64,000 nt of DNA from Flexistipes sinusarabici DSM 4947. Lineage in GTDB: Bacteria > Chrysiogenota > Deferribacteres > Deferribacterales > Flexistipitaceae. Within the stretch, counting starts at the first letter, position 1, and each line of letters opens with the position of its first letter. The stretch spans positions 1,647,451 to 1,711,450 of the forward strand of contig NC_015672.1 of assembly GCF_000218625.1 (NCBI RefSeq), in the 5' to 3' direction. The notes below the pieces were generated by a model. The model was not told the DNA's origin. It searched no databases and was given only the letters and a program-made list of their open reading frames with translations. The translations under genes were made by a program, and so were the position numbers. Shown piece by piece: positions 44,685 to 59,391 of the stretch.

Positions 44685-44726
44685 AATAGTACAAAAATTA
44701 AATAATTGATCATAAAAAATAATGGT

Positions 44727-44750
44727 GCCTGAGGGGGGACTCGAAGGCTA
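44727..44750 (-). other. tRNA 3'-end fragment (T-loop to CCA) with no 5' half. Putative attachment-site remnant marking the island boundary
   Basis: Minus strand reads TTCGAGTCCCCCCTCAGGCACCA: T-loop TTCGAGT, T-stem 3' strand, acceptor 3' strand, discriminator, CCA. No complementary 5' partners upstream. Confidence 0.4.
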
Positions 44751-44911: not shown

Positions 44912-45460
44912 TTAATCTTTTCCCCCCTTTTTCTCTTTAATTATTCCGCGCGTTTTCATGTAATTATACAAAATCGGATATTTAATATTTAATTCTTTTG
45001 CAATATCAGCCACCCTTTTATCATCTTCCAGATACTTTTTTCTTATATACTCAATTTGTTTATCTAACGGGGATCTTTTAGTGCCAAAAGGTCTTCCTTT
45101 TTTTTCCGCTTGTTTTGAACGTATTTTTAATAACTCATTATTTAGAGTTTTGACTAAATCAAAGTATTTTGCAATTTCTGGAAAATTAATATGATCAATT
45201 TGAATGCCTTCTTCACAAAAATATATATCTGTGTCTTGCGATACAATGTCAGAGATTTCAGTCAAAATGTCTCTTAAACTCGTATTCCCGACTAAATATT
45301 GAACATTTTTCGAAAAAAGCCTCGAATTATTATCGAGAAACGGTTTGATAATTTTTACATTATCGCACGGTACAGTAGTACCCTTAATTTTATGCTTTTT
45401 AAAATAGCTATCATAAAAATTCTTCTCTTCAGGGTCTTTAAGAATTATATAATTTAACAT
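44912..45460 (-). CDS. Small DNA-binding protein with C-terminal resolvase/Hin-type HTH; no recombinase catalytic domain recognised
   Basis: C-terminal KKGRPFGTKRSPLDKQIEYIRKKYLEDDKRVADIAKELNIKYPILYNYMK. First gene inside the AT-rich island. Confidence 0.45.
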   Translation of the reverse strand: MLNYIILKDPEEKNFYDSYFKKHKIKGTTVPCDNVKIIKPFLDNNSRLFSKNVQYLVGNTSLRDILTEISDIVSQDTDIYFCEEGIQIDHINFPEIAKYFDLVKTLNNELLKIRSKQAEKKGRPFGTKRSPLDKQIEYIRKKYLEDDKRVADIAKELNIKYPILYNYMKTRGIIKEKKGGKD

Positions 45461-45617
45461 TTTACCCTCTTTTTACGTCTATTAAAATTTAGTAATTTTC
45501 TTAATAAAAAGTCAAGATTAAAAATAACAAAATATGGTAAAAATAATATTTTATTAATCAACAATAAGTCGAGCAATTATTCTTAGATTTATAAGCTTTT
45601 TTATAAATTTAAAAATT

Positions 45618-46369: not shown

Positions 46370-47050
46370 TTAATTTGTTTTTTTATTTTCGATTTTTGAT
46401 GCAATTTTCAGTCTTTCCAGTGATCCTAAAATCGGCAAAACCACATAATGTCCGAACTTACTGTCTACTACTTTCGTTAGGTGGTGCATTCTTCTGAGAA
46501 AGGCTATGAGCTGTATGCCCTCATAAGCACGTAAACCAGCCTGCTTAATTGCCTCTCTGATTTCTTGCTCTTTCCCGCTGGTCAAATATCCCACAAGACG
46601 CAAGTAATAAACGATAGTGTCAATTTGTTTGTTTGTTATTTCCCGAGAAGCATCTGGCGACTCAAAAAACATCTCTTTATAAACTTGGCCTGTATATATA
46701 TTCAGACTGGTTCTGGATAAATATTTTGAATATTTAATGCGAATATTCTTATACTCTGAGCTATCTGTAAACTTTTCCCACGTTAATTCATCTTTCGACC
46801 TCTTATACAAATAACTGTAAGTGTCAGCAATTTCTTTACGGAAGGGTTCCCCCATACCGTTAAGTTTTACAGTTCTTTTTTTCCCGCTCTTTTCCGCCTC
46901 TTGCTCCCGAAATACTTTACGCACATACTTATCGCTTGCACCGACCTGAGACTGGATGTTAAGCACATCCTCACGAGTAAGTATATTCTTATTCTTAATC
47001 AGACTGAGGATGTGTTCCTTTTTGGACACATATTGTTTCTGGTCTGACAC
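46370..47050 (-). CDS. Hypothetical protein, 226 aa (island)
   Basis: ORF with basic N-terminal region. Lies downstream of the 20-bp iterons. Confidence 0.4.
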   Translation of the reverse strand: MSDQKQYVSKKEHILSLIKNKNILTREDVLNIQSQVGASDKYVRKVFREQEAEKSGKKRTVKLNGMGEPFRKEIADTYSYLYKRSKDELTWEKFTDSSEYKNIRIKYSKYLSRTSLNIYTGQVYKEMFFESPDASREITNKQIDTIVYYLRLVGYLTSGKEQEIREAIKQAGLRAYEGIQLIAFLRRMHHLTKVVDSKFGHYVVLPILGSLERLKIASKIENKKTN

Positions 47051-47337: not shown

Positions 47338-47427
47338 GTCAAAATAAGTTACAGTTGTCCAAATTGTGTCAAATTGCGTAACATAGTGTCAAATTGAGTT
47401 ACAAAGAGTCAAATTAAGTAACAGGTA
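47338..47427. repeat. Four to five tandem 20-bp iterons GTCAAATTnnGTTACAnnnn
   Basis: Units start at 47338, 47368, 47388 and 47408, plus a partial unit at 47357. Confidence 0.6.
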
Positions 47428-47510: not shown

Positions 47511-48425
47511 TCATCTTTCTTCCATTTTTTCCAGACTGTCCTGAAGATATTTTTTTAGTGTTTGCTTATAATAATCGGGATTTTTTATTTTAATAAACGG
47601 CGCCCAACGCAGTATTTGCAACAGAAAATCCATTTCGTTATAAACTTCAAAAGTTACTTCGATACTGCTTTCGCCTTCACCTGTTATTTTTTGGTTCGTC
47701 AAACAGGATTTCCTTTTAAAATAATCAGCTACTGAATTATCAATTTCCATAGTAATTTTATCTTTGTCATGCTCATTAAACCAAATATTATTAGCATCTT
47801 TTATTATTTCGTCTATATCATCCCTATGACTAAACACATTACCTGTGGTTTTTATTTCTGAGATTTGATCCACAACAAATTTCTTCAGGCAATCTTCATG
47901 ATCACCCAGTAAGTACCAAAAGCCGTCAGATAAGATTATTCTATATGGTTTTACCGTATAATTACGGCTATATCTTTCATAAAAGAAAGTGATTTCGTTT
48001 TGTTCCTTTATTGCAATTTCTAAATCATTTAATACTGAGGATATGTTTTCAAAACCAATCATATTTTCTTTAACAAAATCGTATGAGAAAGTGATACCGT
48101 TTAGGTGAAATATTTTACTTTTTAATTTATCCAGGTATTTCGCGGAATCATTGTTAACATCCCTTTTCAAAAAATCAAACAAAGCACCTACGTAAGACAA
48201 CTCAGTTTGTGATAAAAAAGTTCCTTCAAAAGAATAACTATCTATCAAAGAATAGCTGTTGTCTTTTTCATTATGTACTACTCCAGGAATAATGGACAAT
48301 TCGAGTAAATATCTTTGAGCCGTTCTGATGCTTACTCCAAGTTCTTCAGAAACTTTTTTTGAATCAATCTTCTTGTTTTCATTTAAAAGTTTTATCAAAC
48401 CCAGTGCTGTATATAGTTTATTCAT
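47511..48425 (-). CDS. wHTH-WYL domain transcriptional regulator (BrxR/CapW-like)
   Basis: N-terminal HTH_11 (VSIRTAQRYLLEL). Central WYL motif (FWYLLGDHED). Length 304 aa. Confidence 0.7.
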   Translation of the reverse strand: MNKLYTALGLIKLLNENKKIDSKKVSEELGVSIRTAQRYLLELSIIPGVVHNEKDNSYSLIDSYSFEGTFLSQTELSYVGALFDFLKRDVNNDSAKYLDKLKSKIFHLNGITFSYDFVKENMIGFENISSVLNDLEIAIKEQNEITFFYERYSRNYTVKPYRIILSDGFWYLLGDHEDCLKKFVVDQISEIKTTGNVFSHRDDIDEIIKDANNIWFNEHDKDKITMEIDNSVADYFKRKSCLTNQKITGEGESSIEVTFEVYNEMDFLLQILRWAPFIKIKNPDYYKQTLKKYLQDSLEKMEER

Positions 48426-48442
48426 AAAACTCCTTTAGCAAA

Positions 48443-48790
48443 TTATTCACTCAGCCCTACAATAACAGTAATTTCACTTTCATTGCCTATTTTAACTGCT
48501 TTAAGATATTTGTTAAAGGAAATCTCATTATCTTCCAAAAAATCGACAAACTCATTAATTTTGTTGAACCCATCATTTGATAGAATTGAATAAAGAATTA
48601 TTGCATTACCATTTTTTCTTTTTCTTAAATTTGTTATTTGATTAAACTTTGAGATATCATTGAAAAAAAAGAAACTAAATTTCCTAAAACCCGAAAGATG
48701 TTTTTCAATATCTTCCGGGCTTATAGAAACGTAACAATCACAAAAACCATTATTACATACATAATCTTTAATACGCTCAACCATGCACAC
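48443..48790 (-). CDS. Hypothetical protein, 115 aa; 17 bp upstream of the WYL regulator
   Basis: ORF apparently co-transcribed with the regulator. Confidence 0.4.
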   Translation of the reverse strand: MCMVERIKDYVCNNGFCDCYVSISPEDIEKHLSGFRKFSFFFFNDISKFNQITNLRKRKNGNAIILYSILSNDGFNKINEFVDFLEDNEISFNKYLKAVKIGNESEITVIVGLSE

Positions 48791-48819
48791 CTCCTTTTTA
48801 ATATACTCACACGGCTGAG

Positions 48820-48834
48820 CGTCGAAATCTGACG
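48820..48834. promoter_or_regulatory. CGTC-N7-GACG palindrome (cgtcgaaatctgacg) in the divergent promoter region
   Basis: Seen in sequence. Lies between the 48443(-) and 48878(+) genes. Confidence 0.45.
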
Positions 48835-48877
48835 TATATTTCTTTTAAATTAAAGATGATTTATTTAGGAGGTTTTT

Positions 48878-49510
48878 ATGAAATCAGTATCTTATGCTAT
48901 CAACAACATTCTGGACGCTTGTAATAAAGAAGACGGTCTATGGATTGGAAATACCCGAAAAGGCATCGAAGTAAGCGAAAAGAAAGAAATCGAAAATTTG
49001 TTTGACCTTATAATTTCAGGTAACACAATACTGGACAACATTTTAATTCTCGAAATCGAGGAGCCTTGCTTTTCAAGAAAATTCATAGCTAACTATTGGT
49101 CTGACCTTAATTTGAAAAAATTTTTCCAAAAGAGAAACTCTCAAAAGACTTTACTTTTGTGCAATGGACAGAGCTTGCAGGATATTTATATCGGGTTAAA
49201 GGGAAGCTATGACAAGCAAGAATTGTATTTCAACGTGATAAGCAGCAGTAGCCAAAATTCAAAAACCACGAATAAATTTAAGTTCTTACCCTACCCTTAT
49301 ATTGAAAAGACCGGAGTCTGGATTAAAGCAAAAGACCTGATTAATTCAGAAGTAAATCCTGACAAAATAATCAAAAAAATTGGAAACAAAATACCTGAAA
49401 ATGTTATAAGCAAAAAATATGATTTGATAAAAGCAAATATTCAAAGTTTTATCAATGAGTTTTCAATCAAAAAGAATGCTCATATAAAAATCATTAACGT
49501 TAACAATTAA
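48878..49510 (+). CDS. Hypothetical protein, 210 aa (island)
   Basis: RBS aggagg upstream. Divergent from the 48443 gene. Confidence 0.45.
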   Translation: MKSVSYAINNILDACNKEDGLWIGNTRKGIEVSEKKEIENLFDLIISGNTILDNILILEIEEPCFSRKFIANYWSDLNLKKFFQKRNSQKTLLLCNGQSLQDIYIGLKGSYDKQELYFNVISSSSQNSKTTNKFKFLPYPYIEKTGVWIKAKDLINSEVNPDKIIKKIGNKIPENVISKKYDLIKANIQSFINEFSIKKNAHIKIINVNN

Positions 49511-49570
49511 ACACTGCAATTCCATTTTCTATTGAGCTTCTTGAAATCCATATAAAATTATTTCACAAAA

Positions 49571-50068
49571 CTATTCCACTTCAATAACATTTGTTTTCTC
49601 AATACTAAATACTTCTTTTAATTCAGCTAATGTGCGTAATTTCACATCATTAACTTTTAAATATTTCATATAATTCTTGAATCCAGAGTCAGTTTTAAAT
49701 TCTTTCAAAATTTCCAGGTAGAATTCAGGAAAATATTCTGATTCATAGAAAAATTCACACTCTTTCAAGTGCCCTTTATTATCCGTATGAAAAATGAATA
49801 TCCCGATATTTGAGAAAAACAAGAAATAATCATCTGCTGAAAAAATACCTTCCTTTTCTGACATTGTATTGAGGTAAAAAGTGCCGCAACATTTTCCATA
49901 AAATTCATCATTTTTATCAGATATGCATTCACATATTCCGGTAATAAAAGAATTTCTAAGTTCGTTATTTAATTTTTCCTGAGAAATTTCATTGCAGGTT
50001 TTGGATAACAAGAAAATTATAAAATCATACATCTGCTTAAATTTAACTATTTCTACAGACTTCTTCAC
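49571..50068 (-). CDS. Hypothetical protein, 165 aa, Cys-rich (CECISDKNDEFYGKCCG)
   Basis: ORF with RBS. Confidence 0.45.
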   Translation of the reverse strand: MKKSVEIVKFKQMYDFIIFLLSKTCNEISQEKLNNELRNSFITGICECISDKNDEFYGKCCGTFYLNTMSEKEGIFSADDYFLFFSNIGIFIFHTDNKGHLKECEFFYESEYFPEFYLEILKEFKTDSGFKNYMKYLKVNDVKLRTLAELKEVFSIEKTNVIEVE

Positions 50069-50105
50069 AAAAACCTCCTAATAAATGATTAAGCTTGAAT
50101 TTAAA

Positions 50106-50603
50106 TTAGTCATCATCCCACTCACTTACCCCAGCTTTCTTGCCGGTTTCTCCAGTATCCCATAGCAAAACCATGTTTTCTACTCCGCCTTTCTTCACAT
50201 CTGTCCCTATTTGAATATTACCCAGTTTCTTTGATTTGATATAAAGAGTAATTCCAAGCATACTATCATAATCCAGTATACCATCGTATTCCTCAACTTT
50301 GACAGCTTCATTTGTCTCCACATTTTCATAGACAAACCTACTGCCGCTGATAAGATTTACCTGCTCTTCGTCGTCAATAGACTGAAATCCGGTGTTCCCC
50401 GCAGCTACCATATCCAGTACTTCTCCAGTAAGATTTACTAAAAACACATCATCTACCATATTTTTTTCACTATTAGTCCTTACAAGCCAAAGCAAAGGTT
50501 TTCTTTCCTCTACCTTATCAGACAACGGAAAAACAAATCTACCCTTTTGTTCGTGTGGCGGAGTCCAGTTAAACTGGTCTTTTACTCGTTTTTGTTTACT
50601 CAT
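50106..50603 (-). CDS. Hypothetical protein, 165 aa, acidic C-terminus (WDDD)
   Basis: ORF with RBS ggagga. CGTC-N7-GACG palindrome in its upstream region. Confidence 0.45.
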   Translation of the reverse strand: MSKQKRVKDQFNWTPPHEQKGRFVFPLSDKVEERKPLLWLVRTNSEKNMVDDVFLVNLTGEVLDMVAAGNTGFQSIDDEEQVNLISGSRFVYENVETNEAVKVEEYDGILDYDSMLGITLYIKSKKLGNIQIGTDVKKGGVENMVLLWDTGETGKKAGVSEWDDD

Positions 50604-50702
50604 ACTTCCTCCTTTTAAGTTTTTTGGGTTTATTGATAAATAATGAAATCGTTAGGATTTTGAAAAAGAATTATCTTTTCAAATGTAAAATAGTTCTTTA
50701 AT

Positions 50703-50719
50703 ACGTCAGAATCCGACGT
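50703..50719. promoter_or_regulatory. ACGTC-N7-GACGT palindrome (acgtcagaatccgacgt) upstream of the 50106..50603 gene
   Basis: Seen in sequence. Confidence 0.45.
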
Positions 50720-50972
50720 TAGAAATTAAAATTACAGAAAAAAACAAGGTGTCTTTATGCAGATTCATGCAAAAATCGTCAAGCTCTTCTTCTGTCATAT
50801 CAAGGATTTCTCTCTTTTTAGCTATATCTTGGGCATAAGAATAAAAAAATTCTCTGTATTTTTTATCTTTTGTAATATCAGAAATGAGACTCAGTTTTTG
50901 TTCCAGATCAAGCTGTGAAACAAGCTCTTTTATCTGGTCATACTTAATTTCAATTTCTTTTAGTTTGGGCAT
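50706..50972 (-). CDS. Hypothetical small protein, 88 aa
   Basis: ORF, probably a helical protein. Confidence 0.35.
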   Translation of the reverse strand: MPKLKEIEIKYDQIKELVSQLDLEQKLSLISDITKDKKYREFFYSYAQDIAKKREILDMTEEELDDFCMNLHKDTLFFSVILISNVGF

Positions 50973-51174
50973 AATTTACTCTCGAATAACAACATGTATT
51001 TATTATAATAAATTTAAATTTACAAAACCATTATTTCAATATTAATAATACACTCACACTTTATTTACTACATTACAAAAAAAACAAATTATTTATTTTT
51101 TCGTATTTGGATAATTATTATTGAAATACGAAAAATAGTTGCATTGTTCATTCTTATGAATTAAAATAAGTATT

Positions 51175-52578
51175 ATGAATACACCAGACTTTCTGAACAG
51201 AGAAAAAGAGCTGAATTTTCTACATTCACAATTTGCAAGAAAAGAAGCATCGTTTATCGTTATTTACGGAAGAAGAAGGGTTGGCAAAACATCCCTTATC
51301 AAGGAGTTTATAAAGGATAAGTCTTCACTGTTTTTTATGGCGGACAAACAGTCAGAAAAAGGCATTCTTGACAGATTTGCAAAAACAGCATCAACCTTTT
51401 TAGAAGATGAGTTTTTAGAAAAATTGACATTTAATTCCTGGGAAGATTTTTTTGGTTATATAACTCAGAAACTCGATGAATCAAAAAAATATGTTCTTGT
51501 AATAGATGAGTTTCAATACCTGCCGGATATAAACCATGCTTTTCCTTCTATATTACAAAGGATATGGGATGAAAAGCTAAAAGACAAAAATATAATGCTG
51601 ATATTGTGCGGATCTTTGATAAACATGATGTATTCTACTACATTAAGCTACCAGAGTCCGCTTTATGGCAGAAGGACCGGGCAGATAAAGTTAGATCCAA
51701 TCTCATTTGATTATTGTCATAATTTTTTCCCCAACATTGATGAGCGAAAACTTATTGAATATTATTCAGTAACAGGAGGAATTCCGAAATACATGGAGAT
51801 GTTTGATGCAACCAATGATATTCTTTATGATATAAAAACAAATGTTCTCTCAAAAAACAGTTATCTTTACAACGAACCACGGTTTATCTTAAACGAAGAG
51901 GTTACTGAAACAGCAACATATTTTTCTATACTTAAAGCGATAGCAGCAGGGGAACATAAAATTGGAAAAATTGCATCCATAGTGGGCGTTAAAACGAATG
52001 TGCTGGCAAAATATTTTAATGTACTGGCAGATTTGCAGATAATAGAAAGACAGGTGCCTGTAACAGAAGAAAATCCTGAAAAAAGCAAAAAGGGCTTATA
52101 TTTTATCAAAGATAATTTTTTCAGATTCTGGTTCCGCTACATATTCCCCTACCAAAGTTTTTTAGAAATTGAAAGAGATGACGTAGTGTTAAAAGAGATA
52201 CAAAAAAGTTTCAATATTTTTGTTAGTTTTGTTTATGAAAACTTGTGTCTGCAAAAGATTCCCGATCTTACCCAGAATGGTGTTATTAATTTCAAAATTG
52301 AAAAATGGGGTAGATGGTGGAGCAAGGATGAGGAAATTGATATAGTAGCTACAAGCAAAAAAGATAAAAATATCTTGTTTGGTGAATGCAAATGGAGCGA
52401 CACACCCATAGGAGTGAGCGTTTATGCTGATTTAAAGGCTAAAGCAAAAAATGTAAAATGGCACACAGATGAAAGGAACGAGTATTATATTCTTTTTTCA
52501 AAGTCAGGCTTTACAGAAGATTTAATGGATATAAATGAAAAAACAAGCAGTCTCATCTTAATCGACAGCATCGTATAA
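51175..52578 (+). CDS. AAA+ ATPase (archaeal-ATPase/DUF234 family) with C-terminal PD-(D/E)XK-like region
   Basis: Walker A GRRRVGKTS. Walker B VLVIDEFQYL. C-terminal EEIDIVA...GECKW. Confidence 0.7.
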   Translation: MNTPDFLNREKELNFLHSQFARKEASFIVIYGRRRVGKTSLIKEFIKDKSSLFFMADKQSEKGILDRFAKTASTFLEDEFLEKLTFNSWEDFFGYITQKLDESKKYVLVIDEFQYLPDINHAFPSILQRIWDEKLKDKNIMLILCGSLINMMYSTTLSYQSPLYGRRTGQIKLDPISFDYCHNFFPNIDERKLIEYYSVTGGIPKYMEMFDATNDILYDIKTNVLSKNSYLYNEPRFILNEEVTETATYFSILKAIAAGEHKIGKIASIVGVKTNVLAKYFNVLADLQIIERQVPVTEENPEKSKKGLYFIKDNFFRFWFRYIFPYQSFLEIERDDVVLKEIQKSFNIFVSFVYENLCLQKIPDLTQNGVINFKIEKWGRWWSKDEEIDIVATSKKDKNILFGECKWSDTPIGVSVYADLKAKAKNVKWHTDERNEYYILFSKSGFTEDLMDINEKTSSLILIDSIV

Positions 52579-52677
52579 AAATATTTAAGGCTTAAAAATT
52601 AACGGGTTCTCAAGCTCAGCATTTTGGTCTGTAATTACAAAAATTCAAAGATAAGATAATTATATCTTAAACTGCAA

Positions 52678-52692
52678 CGTCAGGTATTGACG
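52678..52692. promoter_or_regulatory. CGTC-N7-GACG palindrome (cgtcaggtattgacg) upstream of the AddB-like gene
   Basis: Exact reverse complement of 59053-59067. Same motif class as 48820 and 50703. Confidence 0.5.
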
Positions 52693-52779
52693 CATCTTTG
52701 TGCCAATAAAAAACCAAGAAAGATTTTCGTTTAGATGTAATAAATGCTATAATTTGCAATTATTTATTGTGGGTGAATC

Positions 52780-55700
52780 ATGAAATCAGTCTTAAAGTCT
52801 TTGGAAAACATCTGTTCTAAAAATATTACAAAGCGAAAAATACTTGTGATGCCGAGTTACACAGAAGGCTTAAGCCTATTGAATGCTCTTGCTCTTAACA
52901 ATGTAAATATCGCCAATATAAAAGTAGAAACACCCTTAAGTCTCGCAAAAGATATTTCAAAAATGAGCCTATATAAATCCGGCAAAGATTTTTTAGACAG
53001 ATCAAGTGCAAGATATGTTGTTTTAAACTTATTTAACCAGCTTCTGACAGAGAATAAGCTTAAATATTTTCAACAATTATCACCATCTGTAGGGGTAATC
53101 AGTGAATTGGAAAACGTTTTATATGAACTCAGAATTACAGATTACACCCATATAAATTTTCCTGTAAATTCTTTTATAGATCCTGAAAAAGAACACGACA
53201 TTAAAACATTACTGCAAAAATACGAAAACTATCTTGAAAATAATAACCGCATCGATGAGCCAGGTTTGTATAAACATAGCATACAAATGTTGCAAAAAGA
53301 CAGCTTTCATAAAGACAAGCTTTTTCTGATACCGGCTAATCTGGAACTGCCTTTACTCTCCAAAAGTTTTATCTCAATGCTTACGAAAAATAATCATGAA
53401 ATTATAAAATTCGCACAATTAAAAAGCTTAAATGTCCCTGAAAATTATTACTCAAATAATCCATATTCGGATACAATAGATAACTGCTTCAGCTGGCTTT
53501 ATGAGCTTAATAATTCCGAAAATTTGGACAAAAACCCCGGTTTTGAAATATACAGAGCATACGGCGAGTCAAATGAAGCCAAAAAAGTGATAAGAGTACT
53601 CAAGAGAGATGCAATAAATCTTGATGATGCTGTTATTTATACGACCTCTTCCCAACTGTATAATCAAATTCTCTATGATTTATCATGCACATACAATATT
53701 CCCATGACTTTTGAGGAAGGGATAAGTGTATCAAATACTTCTCCCGGTAAGCTTTTATTATCAGTTCTGGAATGGATTTCAGAGAAATACAGTGTTCCAA
53801 AATTTTGTACAATGTCCACAGGGGGATTTTTCAAATTTAGCAACAATGAAATCTCACCATTAAAAATAAGTAAAATACTTAAAGAAAGCAAGATTGCCTG
53901 GGGCAAAAAACGGTATAAAAAAATATTGGAGAATGAGTTAACGAACACTACAAATGATTATAAAATAGAAATTTTAAATGTCGTTCTTTCAGAGCTTAAT
54001 AGTATTTTTGACGAAATACCCGATACAGAAAACACTTCATCTATATCTTTATCTGAGTTTTCGAAAGGCTTAGTAAACATACTAAACAAACATACCCGAA
54101 TAAGAAATGAGACAGACGCATCAGCTTTAACCACACTTACCGAAAATCTTTCAAACTTGGCAGATTATTCAACACAGGAATTTCAGGAAAAAGAAATAAT
54201 AAAGATGCTTAAAAAACTTGTATATGGCATTAATATTAATGCCTCCTCAGCCAAGCCCGGTCATATTCATGTCACTAATTTTCAAAACGGAATCTGGCAT
54301 AACAGAAAGCACAATTTCATTTTAGGTCTTGATGCTGAAAAATTCCCCGGTAAAGGTGGTGAAAGCCCGTTTTTGCTTGATATGGAAAAGGAGCGTATTG
54401 GAAAAATTCAGACAAGTATTCAAAGGAAAAGCAGAAATATTTATAAAATGACAGAACTTCTTGCTAACACAAATGGCAAAATATATGCAATGTTCACCAA
54501 TTACGATACTGAGGCGGCGAGGCTCCAATCCCCATCCTCTTTACTACTGCAAATTTACAGACTACAGGAAAAGCTTGATAAAAGCACACCGGATAAAGAG
54601 CACATCGAAAGCTATCTGCCTTTTAAAAATAGTGAGAAAGAGATTCTTGATGAGACAGAATTATGGTTGCACAAAGCTTTTTATTCCGGTGGTATCAAAA
54701 ACAATGAAGAAATATTCCCTTCTGTTTACCCTGTATTTAATAAAGGTCTTTTTGCATTAAGTGAAAGGCAAAGCAGCATAAATGAGTATAACGGCTGTGA
54801 GTTAAACATAAGTGATGAAATTGTTAATAAATTACTTTATGAAAAGACCTTCTCAAACTCAAAACTTGAAACAATGGGCAGTTGTCCCCTCCGATTTTTC
54901 TTTCAACATATACTCTATCTAAAACCTCTTGAGGAATATGAGTATGACCCGTGGAGGTGGCTGGATCCTTTGGAAAGAGGAACGTTATTACACAGGATTT
55001 TTGAGCTGTTTTATAAAGAATTAATAAATAAAAAAGAAATGCCGGAATTAGATAAGCATATGGGTTTGTTAGAAAATATAGCAAAAACGGAAACTGAAGA
55101 ATTAAAAGATTTATTACAGCCTCCAAGTGAAACTGTATATGAAAGTGAATTTAATGAAATTTTAGATTCCTGCCGTATATTTCTCCAGAAAGAATCCACC
55201 AAATTATCCAAAGAAGGTCATCCTCTATATTTAGAGCTTTATTTCGGTAATTACCCCGAAAGTGAAGGTTCCAGTTTCCCGACGGCTGTGTTTACATTGC
55301 CATCAGGCAGAAAAATACAGCTTAGCGGTAGAATCGACAGGATTGATCAGTTAAATAACGGAAGCTATAAAATAATTGACTATAAGACAGGAAGTACCAG
55401 AGATTACAGCAGTAATGAATATTTCAAAAAGGGTAAACAGCTTCAACACGCTTTATATTCTTTGGCTTTCGAAAAGCTCATGGGGAATAAATACAAAATT
55501 TCACAATCCGGATACTATTTTCCAACAACCAAAGGCGAAGGCTCAGAATACATGTATCCACCAAGTGACGGAAAACATAAAAGAGAAGAAGTATTGGAAA
55601 TCGTTGACATTCTTCTTGATAATATTGAGAACCGTTTCTTCCCGCCCGTTAAGTATGATAACAAAAATGATTCATGTAGATTCTGCGACTATAAAGAGAT

Positions 55701-55797
55701 ATGCGATAGAGAAAAAAATGATTCATTAACAAAGATGCTGGAATATGAGGAAAACAAATACCTTCAAAATTACAGGAGGATTGAAAGCTATGAGTGA
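52780..55797 (+). CDS. addB: AddB/RexB-like helicase-nuclease subunit (no Walker A; RecB nuclease plus Fe-S cysteines)
   Basis: C-terminal PD-(D/E)XK (GRIDRIDQL...YKIIDYKTGS). Cysteines GSCPLRF...CRFCDYKEIC. Confidence 0.65.
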   Translation: MKSVLKSLENICSKNITKRKILVMPSYTEGLSLLNALALNNVNIANIKVETPLSLAKDISKMSLYKSGKDFLDRSSARYVVLNLFNQLLTENKLKYFQQLSPSVGVISELENVLYELRITDYTHINFPVNSFIDPEKEHDIKTLLQKYENYLENNNRIDEPGLYKHSIQMLQKDSFHKDKLFLIPANLELPLLSKSFISMLTKNNHEIIKFAQLKSLNVPENYYSNNPYSDTIDNCFSWLYELNNSENLDKNPGFEIYRAYGESNEAKKVIRVLKRDAINLDDAVIYTTSSQLYNQILYDLSCTYNIPMTFEEGISVSNTSPGKLLLSVLEWISEKYSVPKFCTMSTGGFFKFSNNEISPLKISKILKESKIAWGKKRYKKILENELTNTTNDYKIEILNVVLSELNSIFDEIPDTENTSSISLSEFSKGLVNILNKHTRIRNETDASALTTLTENLSNLADYSTQEFQEKEIIKMLKKLVYGININASSAKPGHIHVTNFQNGIWHNRKHNFILGLDAEKFPGKGGESPFLLDMEKERIGKIQTSIQRKSRNIYKMTELLANTNGKIYAMFTNYDTEAARLQSPSSLLLQIYRLQEKLDKSTPDKEHIESYLPFKNSEKEILDETELWLHKAFYSGGIKNNEEIFPSVYPVFNKGLFALSERQSSINEYNGCELNISDEIVNKLLYEKTFSNSKLETMGSCPLRFFFQHILYLKPLEEYEYDPWRWLDPLERGTLLHRIFELFYKELINKKEMPELDKHMGLLENIAKTETEELKDLLQPPSETVYESEFNEILDSCRIFLQKESTKLSKEGHPLYLELYFGNYPESEGSSFPTAVFTLPSGRKIQLSGRIDRIDQLNNGSYKIIDYKTGSTRDYSSNEYFKKGKQLQHALYSLAFEKLMGNKYKISQSGYYFPTTKGEGSEYMYPPSDGKHKREEVLEIVDILLDNIENRFFPPVKYDNKNDSCRFCDYKEICDREKNDSLTKMLEYEENKYLQNYRRIESYE

Positions 55798-58700
55798 TCA
55801 AGCTCTAAAGGACAGTCACGCAAGAAAGAAAATAATAAATGATCTTGATACAAATTTTTTAGTGGAAGCCGGTGCAGGTTCCGGTAAGACTTCAAGCCTT
55901 GTTAAAAGGATTACGTCTTTAATCACTAACGGAAAAAATAAAATCTCAGAAATAGCCGCTATTACTTTTACCAAGAAGGCTGCTTCTGAGCTTATGGAAA
56001 GACTTTTAAATGAATTGGAAGACCGACATAATTCAGAAACAGACCCTACCATAAAAGAGAACCTATATGATGCGATAAACAACTTTGACCAGTGTTTTAC
56101 CGGTACAATACACTCATTTTGCTCCGGCATATTGAGGGAAAGACCTGTGGAGGCTGGAGTTGACCCGGATTTTGATGAAATAGATGATTCAGACGAGTTT
56201 GGTTTGATTACTGAAGTCTGGAACGAGTTTATCAAGTCCACAAGAGCTGAGAATCCTGATATGCTAAAATTGACGGAGAAAATTGGGGTATCGCCTGAAG
56301 AGCTTCAGGATAGTTTTGTTATGCTGAATAAATATCCGGAAATCAAAATACACGCTGAAAAATCTGAAAAACCGGATTTAAAGCCTGCGGTTAAAAAAGT
56401 ATTAGAAATCTGTAAAGAGGCTTCAAAATACATTCCTGATGAAGAACCGGATAAAGGGTACGATGCTTTTCAGAAAAATGTGCAATCAACGCTCAGACTT
56501 TTAGAATATAGAAATCTCTATGAAGATAAGTATGCAATAGAAATATTAACAAAATTTGAGAAAACACCCAAAATAACACAAAACAGATGGCTTGATAAAA
56601 AAACTGCAAAAAATTTCCAGGATGTAATACTGCCGGATTTGGTTGAAAACACTGTTTATCCGGTATTAAGAAAACACAGGGAACATATTTATACTTATTT
56701 TATAGATTTTTTTCAAGATGCACTAACATATTATGAAAACAAGAGGAATCAGGAATCAATTCTGAATTATAACGATCTTCTGACACTTACCTCAAAGATG
56801 CTAAGAAATAATTCAAAAGTAAGAGAATATTTTCAAAATAAATACAAGACAACTCTGGTGGATGAGTTCCAGGATACCGATCCCATACAAGCTGAAATTA
56901 TCATGTATTTGACCGGAGAAGATTTAAAGGAAACCGATTGGAGTAAACTGAGACCCAAAAAAGGCTCACTTTTTGTAGTTGGTGATCCAAAACAGTCAAT
57001 ATACAGATTCAGAAGAGCTGATATAGATATTTATAACTTTGTAAAAGAAATTATTTCACAAACAGGCGGTGAAATACTCGAATTAACTTCCAATTTCAGA
57101 TCATTAAACAGCATAGCTGATTATCTCAATCCTGTTTTTGAAGAAAGGTTTCCTGAGAGTGGTGACAGGTATCAGGCACCTATGGCAAAGATCCGTGCAA
57201 TCCGTGAAAACAATTATGAACACGGTGTAAAAAAGATATTAGTCCAATGTGACTCCAGAAAAAAAGAAGATGTTGTTGAAATTGACGCTGAAAATATAGC
57301 AAGATATATAAAATATGCTGTAGACGGTGGAATAAAATTAGCCCGAAATGAGGAAGAAAAATCTAAAGGACTTAATGAGAAGCCTGTATATTCAGATTTT
57401 TTGATAATAACCAAACATAAAGATTTGCTGGAACAATATGCAAACACACTGGAAAAATACGGAATTCCTTCAACTGTAACCGGTGATGATTTTTTCAGCC
57501 AGTCAGAAGAGATAAACCATATTTATAAGCTCCTTAAATTTCTCAGTAAACCGGATGATGAGATACTCTTAGTATCAGTACTAAGAGGTATGTTTTTCGG
57601 TTTGAGTGATAATGACTTGTACCAGTTTAAAGCATCAAATGGGTATCTCAATATCTTTAGCAGTATACCGGAATCGCTGGATGAAAACATCAAAAATCTT
57701 TTTAATAACTGTTTTTCAACACTTCGCAAATATAAAAAGATTATCAATGAGTTGCCACCATCGTCAGCTTTGGAAACAATCTTTCAGGACTTAGGGATTT
57801 TACCCTATACATCACTGAAGAACTTATCAAAAAGCCGGGCTGCAAACATTTATTTTTTAATAGAACAAGTCAAACAGAAGGAAACTACCGAATTTTACTC
57901 ATTTGGAAATGTAGTCAACCATATAGGCAGATTGTTAGAGTCAAAATTTGAACAGAGAAACAGCCTCGAAGTTGAAAGCAATTGCGTGAGAATAATGAAT
58001 TTGCATAAAGCAAAAGGTTTGGAAGCACCTGTTGTTTTTCTTGCCCACCCTCACAAAAATACTAAACACGACCCAACTCAGCATATTAACAGACGAGAGG
58101 GCGAACCTATAGGTTATTTTGCACTAACTAAAAAGAAAGGGATACACCATAAAAAAATTTTTGCTCAACCTAAAAATTGGGAAGAATTCCAGGAAGAGGA
58201 ACAAAAATTTTTAGATGCTGAATTTGAAAGACTTGTCTATGTGGCAGCAACGAGGGCTAAAAATCTCCTTATAATAAGCTGTAAAGAAAAAGGCAATGGG
58301 AGTCAGAACCCCTGGCTGAGCCTGCTGGGTAATTTAAAAGATGACGATGTAATAGATGTACCTGATGTCAGTATAGAGCATGATTCAGGTGTAAATGAAT
58401 TATCCGTAAAAGATATAAATGATAAAAAAGCTGAGATCAGTCATTGGAGGCATTCTGTGTCAGAAGAGAATTATTCAAACATGACCCCCACAGAAGTAAA
58501 AGATTTGGAAAAAATATTTGCCGGTGAAAGGCTCGAAGGCGGCGGTCAGGACTGGGGTACCGCTGTGCATAATTTTTTAGAGTTTGCTGTAATGACCAAA
58601 GATACCGGATATGAGGATTTGGATACTTATATAAAATTTACTTTTGAAGAGCTGGATATAAGCTCTGACAGAACAGAGGAAGCTAAAAAAATAATAGAAG

Positions 58701-59038
58701 ATTTTAAACAAACAGACTTATTTAACCGAATAAAAAATGCCGAACAAGTGGAGACGGAAGCCCCCATTTCTATGAAAATTAATCCGGAATCCGAAATCAT
58801 GAATTTGTTTAATACTAAAACGAGTAACAAGCCTATAATCCTGGCAGGCGTAATTGACCTTGTGTTTAAAGAAAAGGACGGCTGGGTAATTATAGATTAC
58901 AAAACCGACAGAGTTAATTCCGAAGAAGAATATGAAAAACTCAGGCAGGCCTATTTAAATCAAGTGGAAATTTATGCAAAAGCATGGGAAGAGATAACCG
59001 GTGAAAAAGTAAAAGAGAAAAATATATACTTTGTATGA
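55790..59038 (+). CDS. addA: AddA/RexA-like UvrD-family helicase with C-terminal RecB nuclease
   Basis: Walker A AGAGSGKTS. Motif II LVDEFQDTD. Motif III GDPKQSIYRFRRAD. Motif VI VYVAATRAK. Nuclease GVIDLVF...IIDYKTD. Overlaps the addB stop by 8 nt. Confidence 0.8.
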   Translation: MSDQALKDSHARKKIINDLDTNFLVEAGAGSGKTSSLVKRITSLITNGKNKISEIAAITFTKKAASELMERLLNELEDRHNSETDPTIKENLYDAINNFDQCFTGTIHSFCSGILRERPVEAGVDPDFDEIDDSDEFGLITEVWNEFIKSTRAENPDMLKLTEKIGVSPEELQDSFVMLNKYPEIKIHAEKSEKPDLKPAVKKVLEICKEASKYIPDEEPDKGYDAFQKNVQSTLRLLEYRNLYEDKYAIEILTKFEKTPKITQNRWLDKKTAKNFQDVILPDLVENTVYPVLRKHREHIYTYFIDFFQDALTYYENKRNQESILNYNDLLTLTSKMLRNNSKVREYFQNKYKTTLVDEFQDTDPIQAEIIMYLTGEDLKETDWSKLRPKKGSLFVVGDPKQSIYRFRRADIDIYNFVKEIISQTGGEILELTSNFRSLNSIADYLNPVFEERFPESGDRYQAPMAKIRAIRENNYEHGVKKILVQCDSRKKEDVVEIDAENIARYIKYAVDGGIKLARNEEEKSKGLNEKPVYSDFLIITKHKDLLEQYANTLEKYGIPSTVTGDDFFSQSEEINHIYKLLKFLSKPDDEILLVSVLRGMFFGLSDNDLYQFKASNGYLNIFSSIPESLDENIKNLFNNCFSTLRKYKKIINELPPSSALETIFQDLGILPYTSLKNLSKSRAANIYFLIEQVKQKETTEFYSFGNVVNHIGRLLESKFEQRNSLEVESNCVRIMNLHKAKGLEAPVVFLAHPHKNTKHDPTQHINRREGEPIGYFALTKKKGIHHKKIFAQPKNWEEFQEEEQKFLDAEFERLVYVAATRAKNLLIISCKEKGNGSQNPWLSLLGNLKDDDVIDVPDVSIEHDSGVNELSVKDINDKKAEISHWRHSVSEENYSNMTPTEVKDLEKIFAGERLEGGGQDWGTAVHNFLEFAVMTKDTGYEDLDTYIKFTFEELDISSDRTEEAKKIIEDFKQTDLFNRIKNAEQVETEAPISMKINPESEIMNLFNTKTSNKPIILAGVIDLVFKEKDGWVIIDYKTDRVNSEEEYEKLRQAYLNQVEIYAKAWEEITGEKVKEKNIYFV

Positions 59039-59052
59039 GTTTTAAGAATTAA

Positions 59053-59067
59053 CGTCAATACCTGACG
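59053..59067. promoter_or_regulatory. CGTC-N7-GACG palindrome (cgtcaatacctgacg) after the AddA-like gene and upstream of vapBC
   Basis: Reverse complement of 52678-52692. Confidence 0.5.
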
Positions 59068-59163
59068 CAATCCTCTTTAATAATAATTTTCACTTGAAGA
59101 TTGCATAATAAGCTTAAAAAGTATATATTGAAGTATATACTTTTCAAAAAGGAGTTATTAATA

Positions 59164-59391
59164 ATGGATACTGCAAAAATATTTGAAAACGGAAAAAGTC
59201 AGGCTGTCAGGTTACCCAAAAAATACAGGTTTGACAGCGATGATGTGTTTATAAAAAAAATTGATGACATCGTTGTATTAATTCCTAAAGATAAAGTCTG
59301 GCAAATTTTTAGTTCATCTTTGGACAAATTTTCGGAAGATGTAGATTTTCAAAAAGACAATTCTATACCACAGGAAAGAGAAGAAATATAA
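59164..59391 (+). CDS. vapB: VapB-type antitoxin (AbrB/SpoVT-like)
   Basis: MDTAKIFENGKSQAVRLPKKYRF. Stop overlaps the PIN toxin start. Confidence 0.65.
   Translation: MDTAKIFENGKSQAVRLPKKYRFDSDDVFIKKIDDIVVLIPKDKVWQIFSSSLDKFSEDVDFQKDNSIPQEREEI

What the first reader, a model, noticed from the sequence alone, without database searches (positions are those of the whole stretch)
47511..52578. Candidate novel defence module: WYL (BrxR/CapW-like) regulator embedded in a cluster of seven uncharacterised genes plus a DUF234 ATPase-nuclease
A wHTH-WYL regulator (47511-48425) is co-transcribed with a 115-aa ORF. It is surrounded by five further ORFs of 88-210 aa and a 226-aa ORF, none of which I can assign to any family. 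Next to them is an AAA+ ATPase with a PD-(D/E)XK-like tail (51175-52578). BrxR/CapW-type regulators are established markers of phage-defence operons (BREX, CBASS and others). The genes here resemble none of the known effectors, so this may be an undescribed WYL-controlled defence or abortive-infection system. It sits in an AT-rich island bounded by a tRNA-fragment att remnant and CRISPR arrays.
Basis: partly seen in the sequence, partly recalled or inferred. Interest (0 to 1): 0.8.

Follow-up and report, generated by a model that had tools for sequence, protein, structure and literature searches.

The report
WYL-controlled helicase-nuclease island with conserved partner
The flagged cluster in Flexistipes sinusarabici is real, but it is a patchwork island whose conserved core is a WYL regulator, an uncharacterised 165-residue beta-sandwich protein and an AddAB-like helicase-nuclease lying just outside the flagged coordinates, and this trio recurs in unrelated bacteria as a candidate, untested defence or DNA-damage module.

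Summary
The ORFs, the WYL regulator, the DUF234 ATPase, the AT-rich composition, the tRNA fragment and the CRISPR arrays are all present as described. The organism is Flexistipes sinusarabici DSM 4947.

The "seven unknown genes plus DUF234" are not one system.
- g210 is a truncated GmrSD_N (DUF262) domain with degenerate motifs.
- g182 and g226 have only close relatives and are missing from the related loci I recovered.
- The DUF234 ATPase matches PADLOC candidate PDC-S27 and comes and goes independently.
- g165a, g113 and g88 are confined to a few lineages, though they are under purifying selection.

The conserved part is WYL plus g165b. g165b belongs to a large family with no Pfam model. Its AlphaFold model is an all-beta sandwich (pLDDT 95).

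A 17-bp palindrome, ACGTCA-N5-TGACGY, occurs four times in the 64 kb, always in this island. The sites are the g113-WYL/g210 promoter region and about 90-100 nt upstream of g165b, of the AddB-like gene and of vapBC. Related loci keep the first three positions.

Across 33 g165b lineages, 12 have a WYL-type regulator within 5 kb and 6 have an AddAB-like pair within 8 kb.

Best reading: a WYL-controlled island regulon centred on an AddAB-like enzyme and g165b. Whether it serves phage defence or DNA-damage repair is unresolved.

The parts
44723..44745 (-). 23-nt tRNA 3' end fragment (T-arm, acceptor stem, CCA) just downstream of recJ. It marks the left edge of the AT-rich island.
   Evidence: Read directly from the sequence. 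ARAGORN finds no complete tRNA in the window. The fragment is absent from the related loci.
44912..45460 (-). g182: strain-restricted ORF. Only its C-terminus resembles a resolvase/invertase HTH.
   Evidence: PHROG DNA invertase match at E 7.5e-5, residues 116-178 only. Only 2 representatives in 1.84 billion proteins. Absent from L009-L012.
46370..47050 (-). g226 (Flexsi_1580): orphan ORF, cargo of F. sinusarabici strains only.
   Evidence: No family hits. One representative at 72% identity. No significant PDB match and no plasmid match. Absent from L009-L012.
47366..47423 (.). 20-nt tandem repeat, 2.9 copies (GTGTCAAATTGAGTAACAAA), between the WYL 3' end and g226. Unexplained.
   Evidence: Tandem Repeats Finder and the sequence itself.
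47511..48425 (-). wHTH-WYL-WCX transcription factor (Flexsi_1581). Proposed binder of the 17-bp boxes.
   Evidence: Pfam WYL passes its cut-off; WCX is borderline; HTH is weak. PADLOC 'WYL' E 9e-25. dN/dS 0.05-0.08. It is the only DNA-binding protein that co-occurs with the boxes in every related locus long enough to show it.
48443..48784 (-). g113: small ORF immediately upstream of WYL, probably in the same transcript. Dispensable in relatives.
   Evidence: 17-nt gap to the WYL start. dN/dS 0.20. Split over two frames in L009 and absent from L012. Only 2 representatives.
48819..48835 (.). Box 1 (GCGTCGAAATCTGACGT), in the 93-bp divergent g113-WYL / g210 promoter region.
   Evidence: Conserved at the same position in L009, L010 and L011.
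48878..49510 (+). g210 (Flexsi_1583): truncated, motif-degenerate GmrSD_N (DUF262) domain with no HNH/DUF1524 half.
   Evidence: 17 of 20 homologues hit PF03235. DGQQR reads NGQS-L and QRxFVW reads TRKGIEV. dN/dS 0.29-0.32. Replaced by other genes in L010 and absent from L012.
49571..50068 (-). g165a (Flexsi_1584): narrowly distributed ORF downstream of g165b, with an orphan fold.
50106..50603 (-). g165b (Flexsi_1585): member of a large uncharacterised beta-sandwich family. It is the conserved partner of WYL regulators and of nuclease effectors.
50703..50719 (.). Box 2 (ACGTCAGAATCCGACGT), 100 nt upstream of the g165b start.
   Evidence: Same position in L003, L009 and L010; degenerate copies in L011 and L012.
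50706..50972 (-). g88: member of a family of about 72-aa proteins. In this strain a frame change near codon 67 extends the tail.
   Evidence: 5 representatives of 70-85 aa. Present in L003, L010, L011 and L012 but absent from L009. Weak match to the VapB15 N-terminus (E 5e-5, below cut-off).
51175..52578 (+). ATPase_2 + DUF234 ATPase: an independently variable single-gene defence candidate.
   Evidence: Pfam. PADLOC PDC-S27 at E 3e-51. Present in L003 and L010; absent from L009, L011 and L012. No box in its own upstream region.
52677..52693 (.). Box 3 (ACGTCAGGTATTGACGC), 88 nt upstream of the AddB-like start codon.
   Evidence: It stays conserved amid diverged flanks in L011 and L012. L010 retains it even though its AddAB pair is gone.
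52780..55797 (+). AddB-like PD-(D/E)XK nuclease subunit (1005 aa).
   Evidence: PDDEXK_1 at E 3e-36. addB models match but score below their cut-offs. In PADLOC only a Cas4-type nuclease domain hit.
55745..59038 (+). AddA-like UvrD-family helicase with a C-terminal PD-(D/E)XK nuclease (1097 aa).
   Evidence: Pfam. addA_Gpos 359 bits against a cut-off of 708. Absent from this locus in L010 and only 65% identical in L011 and L012.
59052..59068 (.). Box 4 (ACGTCAATACCTGACGC), 14 nt after the AddA-like stop codon and 96 nt upstream of vapB. Its central 15 nt are the exact reverse complement of box 3.
59164..59391 (+). VapB antitoxin.
   Evidence: NCBIfam VapBLeptosp 101 bits against a cut-off of 100.
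59392..59793 (+). VapC PIN-domain toxin (tRNA-fMet endonuclease type).
   Evidence: Pfam PIN. NCBIfam VapCLeptosp 188 bits against a cut-off of 140.
59815..60261 (+). g148: uncharacterised ORF at the right edge of the island.
   Evidence: No family hits. Conserved in L009 and L010. A homologue lies immediately downstream of the g165b homologue in the unrelated locus L018 (E 1e-16).

Best explanation
The region is a variable, AT-rich genomic island of Flexistipes sinusarabici lying between recJ and the CRISPR arrays. It holds several independent cargo genes.

Its functional core is a local regulon of the wHTH-WYL-WCX regulator Flexsi_1581. I propose that a dimer of this regulator binds a 17-bp palindrome, ACGTCA-N5-TGACGY. 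The palindrome lies in its own divergent promoter (g113-WYL / g210). It also lies about 90-100 nt upstream of three other units: g165b-g165a, the AddB/AddA-like helicase-nuclease pair, and vapBC.

In the WYL regulators studied so far (DriD, CapW, SiwR, PafBC), the WYL domain senses single-stranded DNA. By analogy, such DNA made when linear phage DNA or broken chromosomal DNA is resected would switch the regulator and raise expression of the AddAB-like enzyme, g165b and the toxin-antitoxin pair. The AddAB-like enzyme itself produces single-stranded DNA, so the circuit would reinforce itself.

g165b is a non-enzymatic-looking beta-sandwich protein. It is the conserved companion of the regulator and of nuclease effectors, so it is most likely an accessory subunit, either a sensor or a restraint on the nuclease.

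Shown here: gene content, selection on the ORFs, motif statistics and positional conservation, and co-occurrence across lineages.
Inferred: who binds the motif, the inducing signal, the direction of regulation, and the role of g165b.
For: Motif:
- CGTC-N7-GACG occurs 4 times in 64 kb where 0.15 are expected, and no shuffle out of 100 reaches 4. All four lie within 10.3 kb of the island.
- Allowing 2 mismatches to the 17-mer adds only one extra site, inside a coding region.
- Gaps from box to start codon are 100, 88 and 96 nt for g165b, addB and vapB.
- Boxes 1-3 keep their positions in L003, L009, L010, L011 and L012. This holds upstream of an AddB that is only 64% identical, where the flanking DNA has diverged.
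- WYL is the only DNA-binding protein present wherever the boxes are. VapBC is absent from L010 and L012, g88 from L009, g113 from L012, and g182/g226 from all of them.
- The 6-5-6 architecture resembles the BrxR R-box, which also has a 5-bp spacer (PMC9122601). In L062 the WYL-proximal palindrome is GCGACA-N5-TGTCGC.

Co-occurrence of g165b:
- In L012 the layout reduces to addA<-addB | g88->g165b->WYL.
- Independent lineages repeat the trio. L055 reads WYL->g165b->137 aa->AddB-like->AddA-like. L057/L025 reads BrxR-type WYL | g165b->75 aa->AddB-like->AddA-like. Thiomicrorhabdus L062 has all three within 14 kb.
- Census of 33 g165b lineages: 12 have a WYL-type regulator within 5 kb and 6 have an AddAB-like pair within 8 kb, although many contigs are short.
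- Other direct neighbours of g165b are GmrSD, AbiU/AIPR, PDC-S26, McrBC, type I restriction-modification, and a BrxR-controlled Metallophos/ADP-ribosylglycohydrolase gene on a P4-like element.

Island behaviour:
- Mosaic presence and absence of genes, and 65% versus 90% identity blocks within one contig (L011).

Literature:
- WYL regulators sense single-stranded DNA (PMC9186387, PMC11662680, PMC10693628).
- One WYL activator controls both the DNA-damage response and defence genes (PMC12392091).
Against: - No binding or expression data exist. The boxes could be sites for a global factor, for example an uncharacterised LexA-type box, or short stem-loops. Two of them were flagged as terminator-like by the pattern scan.
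- Box 4 was not assessed in the related loci.
- Only this 64-kb window and the 20-kb L009 locus could be checked beyond the island for boxes, not the whole genome.
- The WYL regulators next to g165b elsewhere are only 15-18% identical to the Flexistipes protein. The gammaproteobacterial AddA-likes are only 21-25% identical to Flexistipes AddA. The trio may therefore be convergent rather than inherited as a unit.
- Most g165b lineages show no WYL or AddAB-like neighbour on the DNA available, and one sits among housekeeping genes (L063).
- I could not test whether this AddAB pair is the organism's only one, which would favour plain repair.
- g165b gives no functional clue beyond a generic beta-sandwich fold.
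Confidence: 0.55

Rival explanations
1. Ordinary DNA-damage regulon. The AddAB-like pair is the cell's housekeeping double-strand-break resection enzyme, placed next to recJ. The WYL protein is a DriD/PafBC/DdaA-like damage-responsive regulator of it. The small genes are incidental island cargo with no defence role.
For: - recJ borders the island.
- AddA and AddB resemble the canonical AddAB models more than any defence profile.
- Boxes 3 and 4 sit about 74-76 nt upstream of transcription starts that I inferred from consensus-like -10 elements. That position suits an activator, as with DriD, whose site lies upstream of the -35 box (PMC9186387).
- A mixed WYL profile hits DriD and PafBC far better than BrxR or CapW.
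- WYL-controlled damage regulons are well documented (PMC9186387, PMC10693628, PMC12392091).
Against: - The AddAB-VapBC segment is missing from this locus in the closely related L010. In L011 it is only 65% identical while the adjacent genes are about 90% identical. A core repair gene would not be expected to behave this way.
- The same trio occurs in marine gammaproteobacteria, inside islands with IS elements, a GIY-YIG nuclease and AAA ATPases. From general knowledge, not tested here, that group normally carries RecBCD.
- The remaining neighbours of g165b are overwhelmingly defence genes.
- The mixed profile is dominated by the non-Flexistipes sequences. The Flexistipes-only profile hits nothing significantly.
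Confidence: 0.25
2. One reading: the WYL gene, the seven small ORFs and the DUF234 ATPase together form one new multi-gene WYL-controlled defence or abortive-infection system.
For: - The genes are adjacent, AT-rich and under purifying selection.
- A WYL regulator is present.
- DUF234 matches a PADLOC candidate.
Against: - The genes are not co-inherited. DUF234 and g88 are absent from L009. g210 is replaced in L010. g165a, g210 and g113 are absent from L012. g182 and g226 are absent from all related loci.
- g210 is a degenerate domain fragment.
- g113 is disrupted in L009.
- No box lies upstream of DUF234, g226 or g182.
Confidence: 0.05
3. There is no coordinated system. The island is a recombination hotspot collecting unrelated cargo, and the palindromes are short repeated stem-loops (REP-like elements or terminators) or sites for a factor encoded elsewhere.
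For: - Gene content is highly mosaic.
- Two boxes are followed by T-rich tracts and were flagged as terminator-like.
- Boxes 3 and 4 flank the AddAB pair as exact inverse copies.
- L012 has a box just after the WYL stop codon.
Against: - Box 1 lies between two diverging start codons, where there is nothing to terminate.
- All sites share the same arm sequence, whereas unrelated terminators would each have their own stem sequence.
- Distances to three start codons are nearly constant.
- No copies occur in the other 54 kb of the window or outside the island in L009.
- The association of g165b with WYL and AddAB-like genes is seen in unrelated lineages that have different operator sequences.
Confidence: 0.15

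Closest known systems
BrxR / CapW-type WYL repressors of defence islands (BREX-BrxU island of pEFER; CBASS)
   Same: - The domain order is wHTH-WYL-WCX.
- The gene sits in a mosaic island.
- The predicted operator is an inverted repeat with a 5-bp spacer in the regulator's own promoter plus further copies in front of downstream units. BrxR likewise has R-BOX1 and R-BOX2 (PMC9122601).
- A GmrSD-type gene remnant is transcribed divergently, echoing BrxR with BrxU.
- BrxR-type proteins proper sit next to g165b homologues in L051 and L057.
   Different: - The Flexistipes protein has no WHD_BrxR or BrxR_CTD Pfam hits and no significant sequence match to solved BrxR or CapW structures.
- Arms are 6 bp rather than 11 bp.
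- Three of the four boxes lie about 90-100 nt upstream of start codons, which suggests activation as much as repression.
- The controlled genes (AddAB-like pair, g165b, VapBC) are not a known BrxR or CapW cargo.
DriD / PafBC / DdaA / SiwR: WYL activators of DNA-damage responses
   Same: - They are WYL transcription factors with palindromic sites upstream of core promoters.
- They are switched by single-stranded DNA, and AddAB is the presumed source of that DNA in Caulobacter (PMC9186387).
- DdaA controls both repair and defence genes (PMC12392091).
- Here the predicted regulon contains a resection enzyme.
   Different: - Those are chromosome-wide regulators of core genes such as recA and didA. 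Here every detected site lies in one variable island, and the AddAB-like genes themselves are variable between strains.
- Sequence similarity of the Flexistipes protein to DriD or PafBC is not significant on its own.
AddAB / AdnAB / RecBCD helicase-nucleases
   Same: - AddA-like: UvrD-type motor plus a C-terminal RecB-type nuclease.
- AddB-like: a PD-(D/E)XK nuclease domain with a cysteine cluster (CxxCxxxxxC plus an upstream Cys), read directly from the sequence.
- The two genes are adjacent and overlap.
   Different: - Scores are well below the NCBIfam equivalog cut-offs (359 against 708; 83 against 904).
- No Walker A motif is evident at the AddB N-terminus, read by eye.
- The pair is preceded by a WYL-type operator, accompanied by g165b, and variably present.
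GmrSD / BrxU type IV restriction enzymes (relevant to g210)
   Same: g210 aligns with the first half of GmrSD_N in 17 of 20 homologues. Full-length GmrSD genes lie directly upstream of g165b homologues in L004 and L034.
   Different: - g210 has no direct Pfam hit.
- The DGQQR and QRxFVW motifs are lost.
- The second half of the N-domain and the whole HNH/DUF1524 domain are missing.
PADLOC candidate PDC-S27 (ATPase_2 + DUF234 proteins)
   Same: 51175-52578 matches over its full length (E 3e-51, residues 6-439 of 467) and has both Pfam domains.
   Different: Nothing notable. It behaves as an independent insertion, absent from L009, L011 and L012, so it is not part of the WYL core.

Membership tests
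wHTH-WYL-WCX transcription factors (general) | WYL domain | tested here: met
   PF13280, 41.5 bits against a cut-off of 21.8, residues 131-192.
wHTH-WYL-WCX transcription factors (general) | N-terminal winged HTH and C-terminal WCX extension | tested here: inconclusive
   WCX 22.9 bits against a cut-off of 23.9. HTH_11 18.3 against 25. HTH_24 15.2 against 21.9. PADLOC WYL profiles cover residues 8-296.
BrxR family | WHD_BrxR (PF26109) and BrxR_CTD (PF26107) domains | tested here: not met
   Neither appears among the Pfam hits at E <= 0.1. They are detected in the regulators of L051 and L057. BrxR structure 7qfz is not matched by the Flexistipes profile.
BrxR family | Binds an inverted repeat in its own promoter and represses downstream defence genes | not testable with these tools
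   Only a conserved palindrome in the autoregulatory position is shown. Binding and the direction of regulation are unknown.
CapW | Encoded next to, and controlling, a CBASS operon | tested here: not met
   No CBASS component was found among the island genes by PADLOC or Pfam.
DriD/PafBC-type damage-response activators | Single-stranded DNA binding by the WYL domain switches DNA binding or activation | not testable with these tools
   Inferred by analogy only (PMC9186387, PMC11662680).
DriD/PafBC-type damage-response activators | Sites at core repair genes across the chromosome | tested here: inconclusive
   Within 64 kb all sites are in the island and none lies at recJ. The rest of the genome could not be scanned.
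AddAB helicase-nuclease | AddA: UvrD/Rep motor plus C-terminal RecB-type nuclease | tested here: met
   UvrD-helicase, UvrD_C and PDDEXK_1 (residues 935-1087).
AddAB helicase-nuclease | Scores above the curated AddA/AddB equivalog thresholds | tested here: not met
   addA_Gpos 359 against 708, addA_alphas 249 against 861, addB_Gpos 83 against 904, addB_alphas 60 against 487.
GmrSD / DUF262 type IV restriction (g210) | Intact GmrSD_N with the DGQQR motif plus the GmrSD_C (DUF1524, HNH) nuclease | tested here: not met
   No direct Pfam hit. Motifs are degenerate and the protein ends after about half of the N-domain.
PADLOC PDC-S27 (DUF234 ATPase) | Full-length match to the PDC-S27 profile, with ATPase_2 + DUF234 | tested here: met
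   E 2.9e-51, residues 6-439. Both Pfam domains score above their cut-offs.
VapBC type II toxin-antitoxin | VapB and PIN-domain VapC above the NCBIfam cut-offs, adjacent and overlapping | tested here: met
   101 against 100 and 188 against 140 bits. The vapB stop codon is followed directly by the vapC ATG.
Any known or candidate defence system in PADLOC-DB v2 (g113, g165a, g165b, g226, g182, g148) | Match to any of the 5027 profiles | tested here: not met
   No hits at E <= 0.1 for five of the six genes. g148 was scanned only at E <= 1e-5, also with no hit.

The most novel reading that the evidence does not exclude
The g165b family would be the constant, non-catalytic subunit (a sensor or a restraint) of an undescribed modular defence family. 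It is paired in small operons with interchangeable nuclease or phosphoesterase effectors and is usually placed under a WYL/BrxR-type single-stranded-DNA-sensing regulator. The effectors seen are AddAB-like helicase-nucleases, GmrSD, DUF2779 and PDDEXK_4 (PDC-S26) proteins, AbiU/AIPR, and Metallophos/ADP-ribosylglycohydrolase proteins. In the AddAB-like version, a second, inducible resection enzyme would be dedicated to destroying invading linear DNA.
Probability: 0.2. Interest if true: 0.75.

Novelty: new variant of a known kind. Interest (0 to 1): 0.55.

Why it matters
WYL regulators are emerging as the switches that link single-stranded DNA, a universal sign of damage or infection, to repair and immunity genes. 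What they control outside BREX, CBASS and a few damage regulons is largely unmapped.

Here a WYL regulator appears to control an AddAB-like enzyme, which is itself a producer of single-stranded DNA. With it comes a widespread protein family of more than 270 clusters at 50% identity that has no Pfam model, no solved relative and no annotation.

If the trio is a defence system, it would add an inducible RecBCD/AddAB-type nuclease to the known anti-phage repertoire and give the g165b family a role. If it is a repair regulon, it would be a mobile, strain-variable one, which is also unusual.

The predicted operator and the compact gammaproteobacterial operons (BrxR | g165b-small-AddB-AddA) make both ideas directly testable in E. 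coli.

Tried and rejected
- Concatenating the small proteins into one query worked for the exhaustive representative search. It failed in the search for homologous proteins, which returned nothing, not even self-hits, and cost one capped search.
- The 67-sequence alignment was too diverse for the search for related loci. A 10-sequence subset worked.
- g165b has no relatives in IMG/VR viral contigs, GenBank phages or PLSDB plasmids. g226 has none in plasmids. The island DNA has no plasmid match. I therefore dropped the idea of a phage- or plasmid-borne origin or an anti-defence role.
- The GC-richer non-coding stretch 45600-46040 gave no Rfam hit and no folding signal on either strand.
- VapB, g88, g113, g182 and g226 were each considered as the box-binding protein. 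All were rejected because each is missing from at least one related locus that keeps the boxes.
- I looked for att-type direct repeats of the tRNA fragment at the far end of the island and found none.
- The afdb50 fold library was unavailable.
- Sequence searches of PDB with g226, g148 and the g165b profile gave nothing significant.
- A literature search found no description of a WYL/AddAB-like/g165b system.

Full report
**Source and layout**

The window comes from Flexistipes sinusarabici DSM 4947 (Deferribacterota). Exact look-ups return Flexsi_1580-1585 and neighbouring genes.

The gene order around the finding is as follows:
- glpK, yrhK and recJ (43056-44684)
- a 23-nt tRNA 3' fragment (44723-44745, minus strand)
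- g182, then a 900-bp non-coding gap, then g226, then a 20-nt tandem repeat
- the WYL gene (47511-48425, minus) preceded by g113
- g210, transcribed divergently
- g165a, g165b and g88, all on the minus strand
- the DUF234 ATPase, transcribed divergently
- an AddB-like gene (52780-55797) and an AddA-like gene (55745-59038)
- vapBC, g148, an IS transposase, and CRISPR arrays from about 61.87 kb

GC content drops to 29-35% from about 44.7 kb to 60 kb.

**Are the small ORFs genes?**

Yes. A GTDB genome contig (L003, 93% nucleotide identity, collinear with 49142-56765) and metagenome contigs (L009-L012) carry orthologues. Nei-Gojobori dN/dS values are:

| Gene | dN/dS |
|---|---|
| g165b | 0.10-0.13 |
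| g165a | 0.12-0.26 |
| g113 | 0.20 |
| g210 | 0.29-0.32 |
| WYL | 0.05-0.08 |
| DUF234 ATPase | 0.10-0.12 |
| AddAB-like pair | 0.12-0.16 |

**What the small genes are**

I ran an exhaustive HMMER search of 1.84 billion cluster representatives with the seven small proteins concatenated. It gave 273 hits at E <= 0.001.

- **g165b** accounts for 117 of the best 150 hits. It belongs to a large family of proteins of about 155 aa. The family has no Pfam, PHROG, NCBIfam, PADLOC or PDB sequence match.
- **g210** matches the N-terminal domain of proteins of 200-740 aa, and 17 of 20 of those carry GmrSD_N. In g210 itself the DGQQR and QRxFVW motifs are degenerate, and the protein stops half-way through the domain. 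It is a relic or a non-catalytic derivative of a type IV restriction enzyme.
- **g88** belongs to a small family of proteins of about 72 aa. In this strain a frame change lengthens it.
- **g165a** has 4 representatives, **g113** 2, **g226** 1 and **g182** 2, so these are narrowly distributed.

**The cluster is not one unit**

The related loci differ in content:
- L009 lacks DUF234 and g88, has g113 split over two frames, and carries a ZorD/DpdE-like SNF2 helicase between WYL and recJ.
- L010 lacks g210 (two other unknown genes take its place). It has a YhgA-type transposase between g88 and g165b, and it lacks AddAB and VapBC altogether.
- L011 combines g165b, g165a and g210 at about 90% identity with AddAB and g88 at only about 64%.
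- L012 reduces everything to addA<-addB | g88->g165b->WYL.

g182 and g226 occur in none of these loci. The DUF234 ATPase is a full-length match to PADLOC candidate PDC-S27, and its presence varies independently of the other genes.

**A shared regulatory element**

Reading the intergenic regions showed similar palindromes. The pattern CGTC-N7-GACG occurs exactly four times in the 64 kb, where 0.15 are expected, and none of 100 shuffles reaches four. The sites are:

| Box | Coordinates | Position |
|---|---|---|
| 1 | 48819-48835 | between the diverging g113-WYL and g210 start codons |
| 2 | 50703-50719 | 100 nt upstream of g165b |
| 3 | 52677-52693 | 88 nt upstream of addB |
| 4 | 59052-59068 | 96 nt upstream of vapB |

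The consensus is ACGTCA-N5-TGACGY. Relaxing to two mismatches adds only one site, inside a coding region.

The boxes upstream of addB, upstream of g165b and in the g113-WYL promoter region recur at the same places in L003 and L009-L012. This includes the position upstream of the 64%-identical AddB, where the surrounding DNA has diverged.

Of all DNA-binding candidates in the island, only the WYL protein is present wherever the boxes are. Arms of 6 bp with a 5-bp spacer parallel the BrxR R-boxes, which have 11-bp arms and a 5-bp spacer (PMC9122601). I therefore assign the box to the WYL regulator. This is an inference.

Consensus-like -10 elements place boxes 3 and 4 about 74-76 nt upstream of probable transcription starts. 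That position fits activation as in DriD (PMC9186387) as well as repression. This step is also inferred.

**The trio recurs elsewhere**

Fifty-five further g165b loci were recovered, 5 from GTDB, 38 from metagenomes and 12 by exact-protein look-up.
- L055 reads WYL->g165b->137 aa->AddB-like (904 aa)->AddA-like, all in one direction.
- L057 and L025 are the same system. Together they read BrxR-type WYL | g165b->75 aa->AddB-like (876 aa)->AddA-like (1052 aa).
- In Thiomicrorhabdus sp. Milos-T2 all three lie within 14 kb, together with an AAA ATPase, a GIY-YIG nuclease and an IS fragment.
- In Psychromonas ingrahamii a BrxR gene faces a Metallophos/ADP-ribosylglycohydrolase gene that is followed by g165b, on a P4-like element.
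- Other genes directly upstream of g165b homologues are full-length GmrSD (L004, L034), AbiU/AIPR (L019), DUF2779 proteins (several lineages) and Metallophos (L005, L006). PDC-S26, McrBC and type I restriction-modification genes lie close by.

A profile-based census over 62 loci, grouped into 33 lineages at 70% identity, finds a WYL-type regulator within 5 kb in 12 lineages. It finds an AddAB-like pair within 8 kb in 6 lineages, although many contigs are short.

Two caveats apply. These regulators are only 15-18% identical to the Flexistipes one. The gammaproteobacterial AddA-likes are only 21-25% identical to the Flexistipes AddA. The association therefore holds at the level of protein families, not of an inherited cassette. 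One lineage sits among housekeeping genes.

**Classifying the regulator**

The Flexistipes protein lacks BrxR-specific domains. On its own it has no significant match to any solved WYL regulator. Its best PADLOC match is the CRISPR-associated WYL profile, but no box lies near the CRISPR arrays. It should be called a wHTH-WYL-WCX regulator of undetermined subtype.

**Interpretation**

The best-supported reading is a WYL-controlled island regulon whose conserved members are the regulator, g165b and an AddAB-like helicase-nuclease. VapBC is co-regulated in this strain. Around them sits unrelated cargo: the DUF234/PDC-S27 ATPase, the GmrSD relic, g165a, g113, g182 and g226.

Characterised WYL regulators sense single-stranded DNA (PMC9186387, PMC11662680, PMC10693628), and one of them controls both repair and defence genes (PMC12392091). 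The likely trigger here is therefore resection products from damaged or invading DNA, and the AddAB-like enzyme would feed the signal back into the circuit.

Whether the output is immunity or repair cannot be settled with these data.
- For immunity: the strain-level variability of the AddAB segment, and the defence-rich neighbourhoods of g165b.
- For repair: the recJ adjacency, the canonical AddAB-like architecture, and the lack of any test for a second AddAB in the genome.

**Verdict**

The finding is a new variant of a known kind, namely a WYL-regulated island. Its composition and its uncharacterised conserved partner family have not been described in the literature I could search. Interest is moderate to good at 0.55, because the predicted operator and the compact operons in other bacteria make it directly testable.

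Noticed in passing
window 61870-64000: The CRISPR region is split into mini-arrays of 4-5 repeat-spacer units by three 100%-identical 300-nt inserts (62087-62386, 62740-63039, 63399-63698). Each insert starts with a truncated repeat and carries TAGGTTT heptad runs. This may be repeated leader duplication.
   Followed up: no
window 45600-46040: A GC-richer non-coding stretch sits inside a 900-bp gene-free gap between g182 and g226. It has no ORF, no Rfam match and no folding signal on either strand.
   Followed up: partly
window 47366-47423: An iteron-like 20-nt tandem repeat (GTGTCAAATTGAGTAACAAA, 2.9 copies, with further degenerate copies just upstream) lies between the WYL 3' end and g226. 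It is unexplained.
   Followed up: no
window 51032-51052 and 51108-51128: A 21-nt inverted repeat, 86% complementary, lies in the divergent g88 / DUF234-ATPase intergenic region. It may be a separate operator for the ATPase.
   Followed up: no
window 52678-52692 and 59053-59067: Boxes 3 and 4 are exact reverse complements over 15 nt and bracket the AddAB-like pair. The related locus L010 lacks AddAB and VapBC but keeps one box of the box-3 type.
   Followed up: partly
window 50706-50972: g88 is 88 aa here but about 72 aa in relatives and in the wider family. A frame change near codon 67 extends it across box 2 in this strain only.
   Followed up: partly
window 59815-60261 and L018 4555-4983: The uncharacterised g148 has a homologue (E 1e-16) immediately downstream of the g165b homologue in an unrelated metagenome contig that also carries a large serine recombinase. 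It may be another loosely linked partner.
   Followed up: partly
L011 (Ga0079288_100098) 1857-11756: One contig joins AddAB and g88 at about 64% identity to g165b, g165a and g210 at about 88-90% identity to the window. This points to recombination between lineages, or a chimeric assembly, with the breakpoint between g88 and g165b.
   Followed up: no
L060 (Ga0073581_110290) 2862-4778: Two g165b paralogues (174 and 167 aa), separated by a 214-aa gene, follow a McrBC pair.
   Followed up: no
window 32392-32859 and 28543-28566: Runs of short tandem repeats (GAGATAGG octamers and ATAACCC/AACCCAT heptamers) lie just upstream of the SRP RNA gene (32993-33091). One 24-nt copy is repeated 4.3 kb away.
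   Followed up: no
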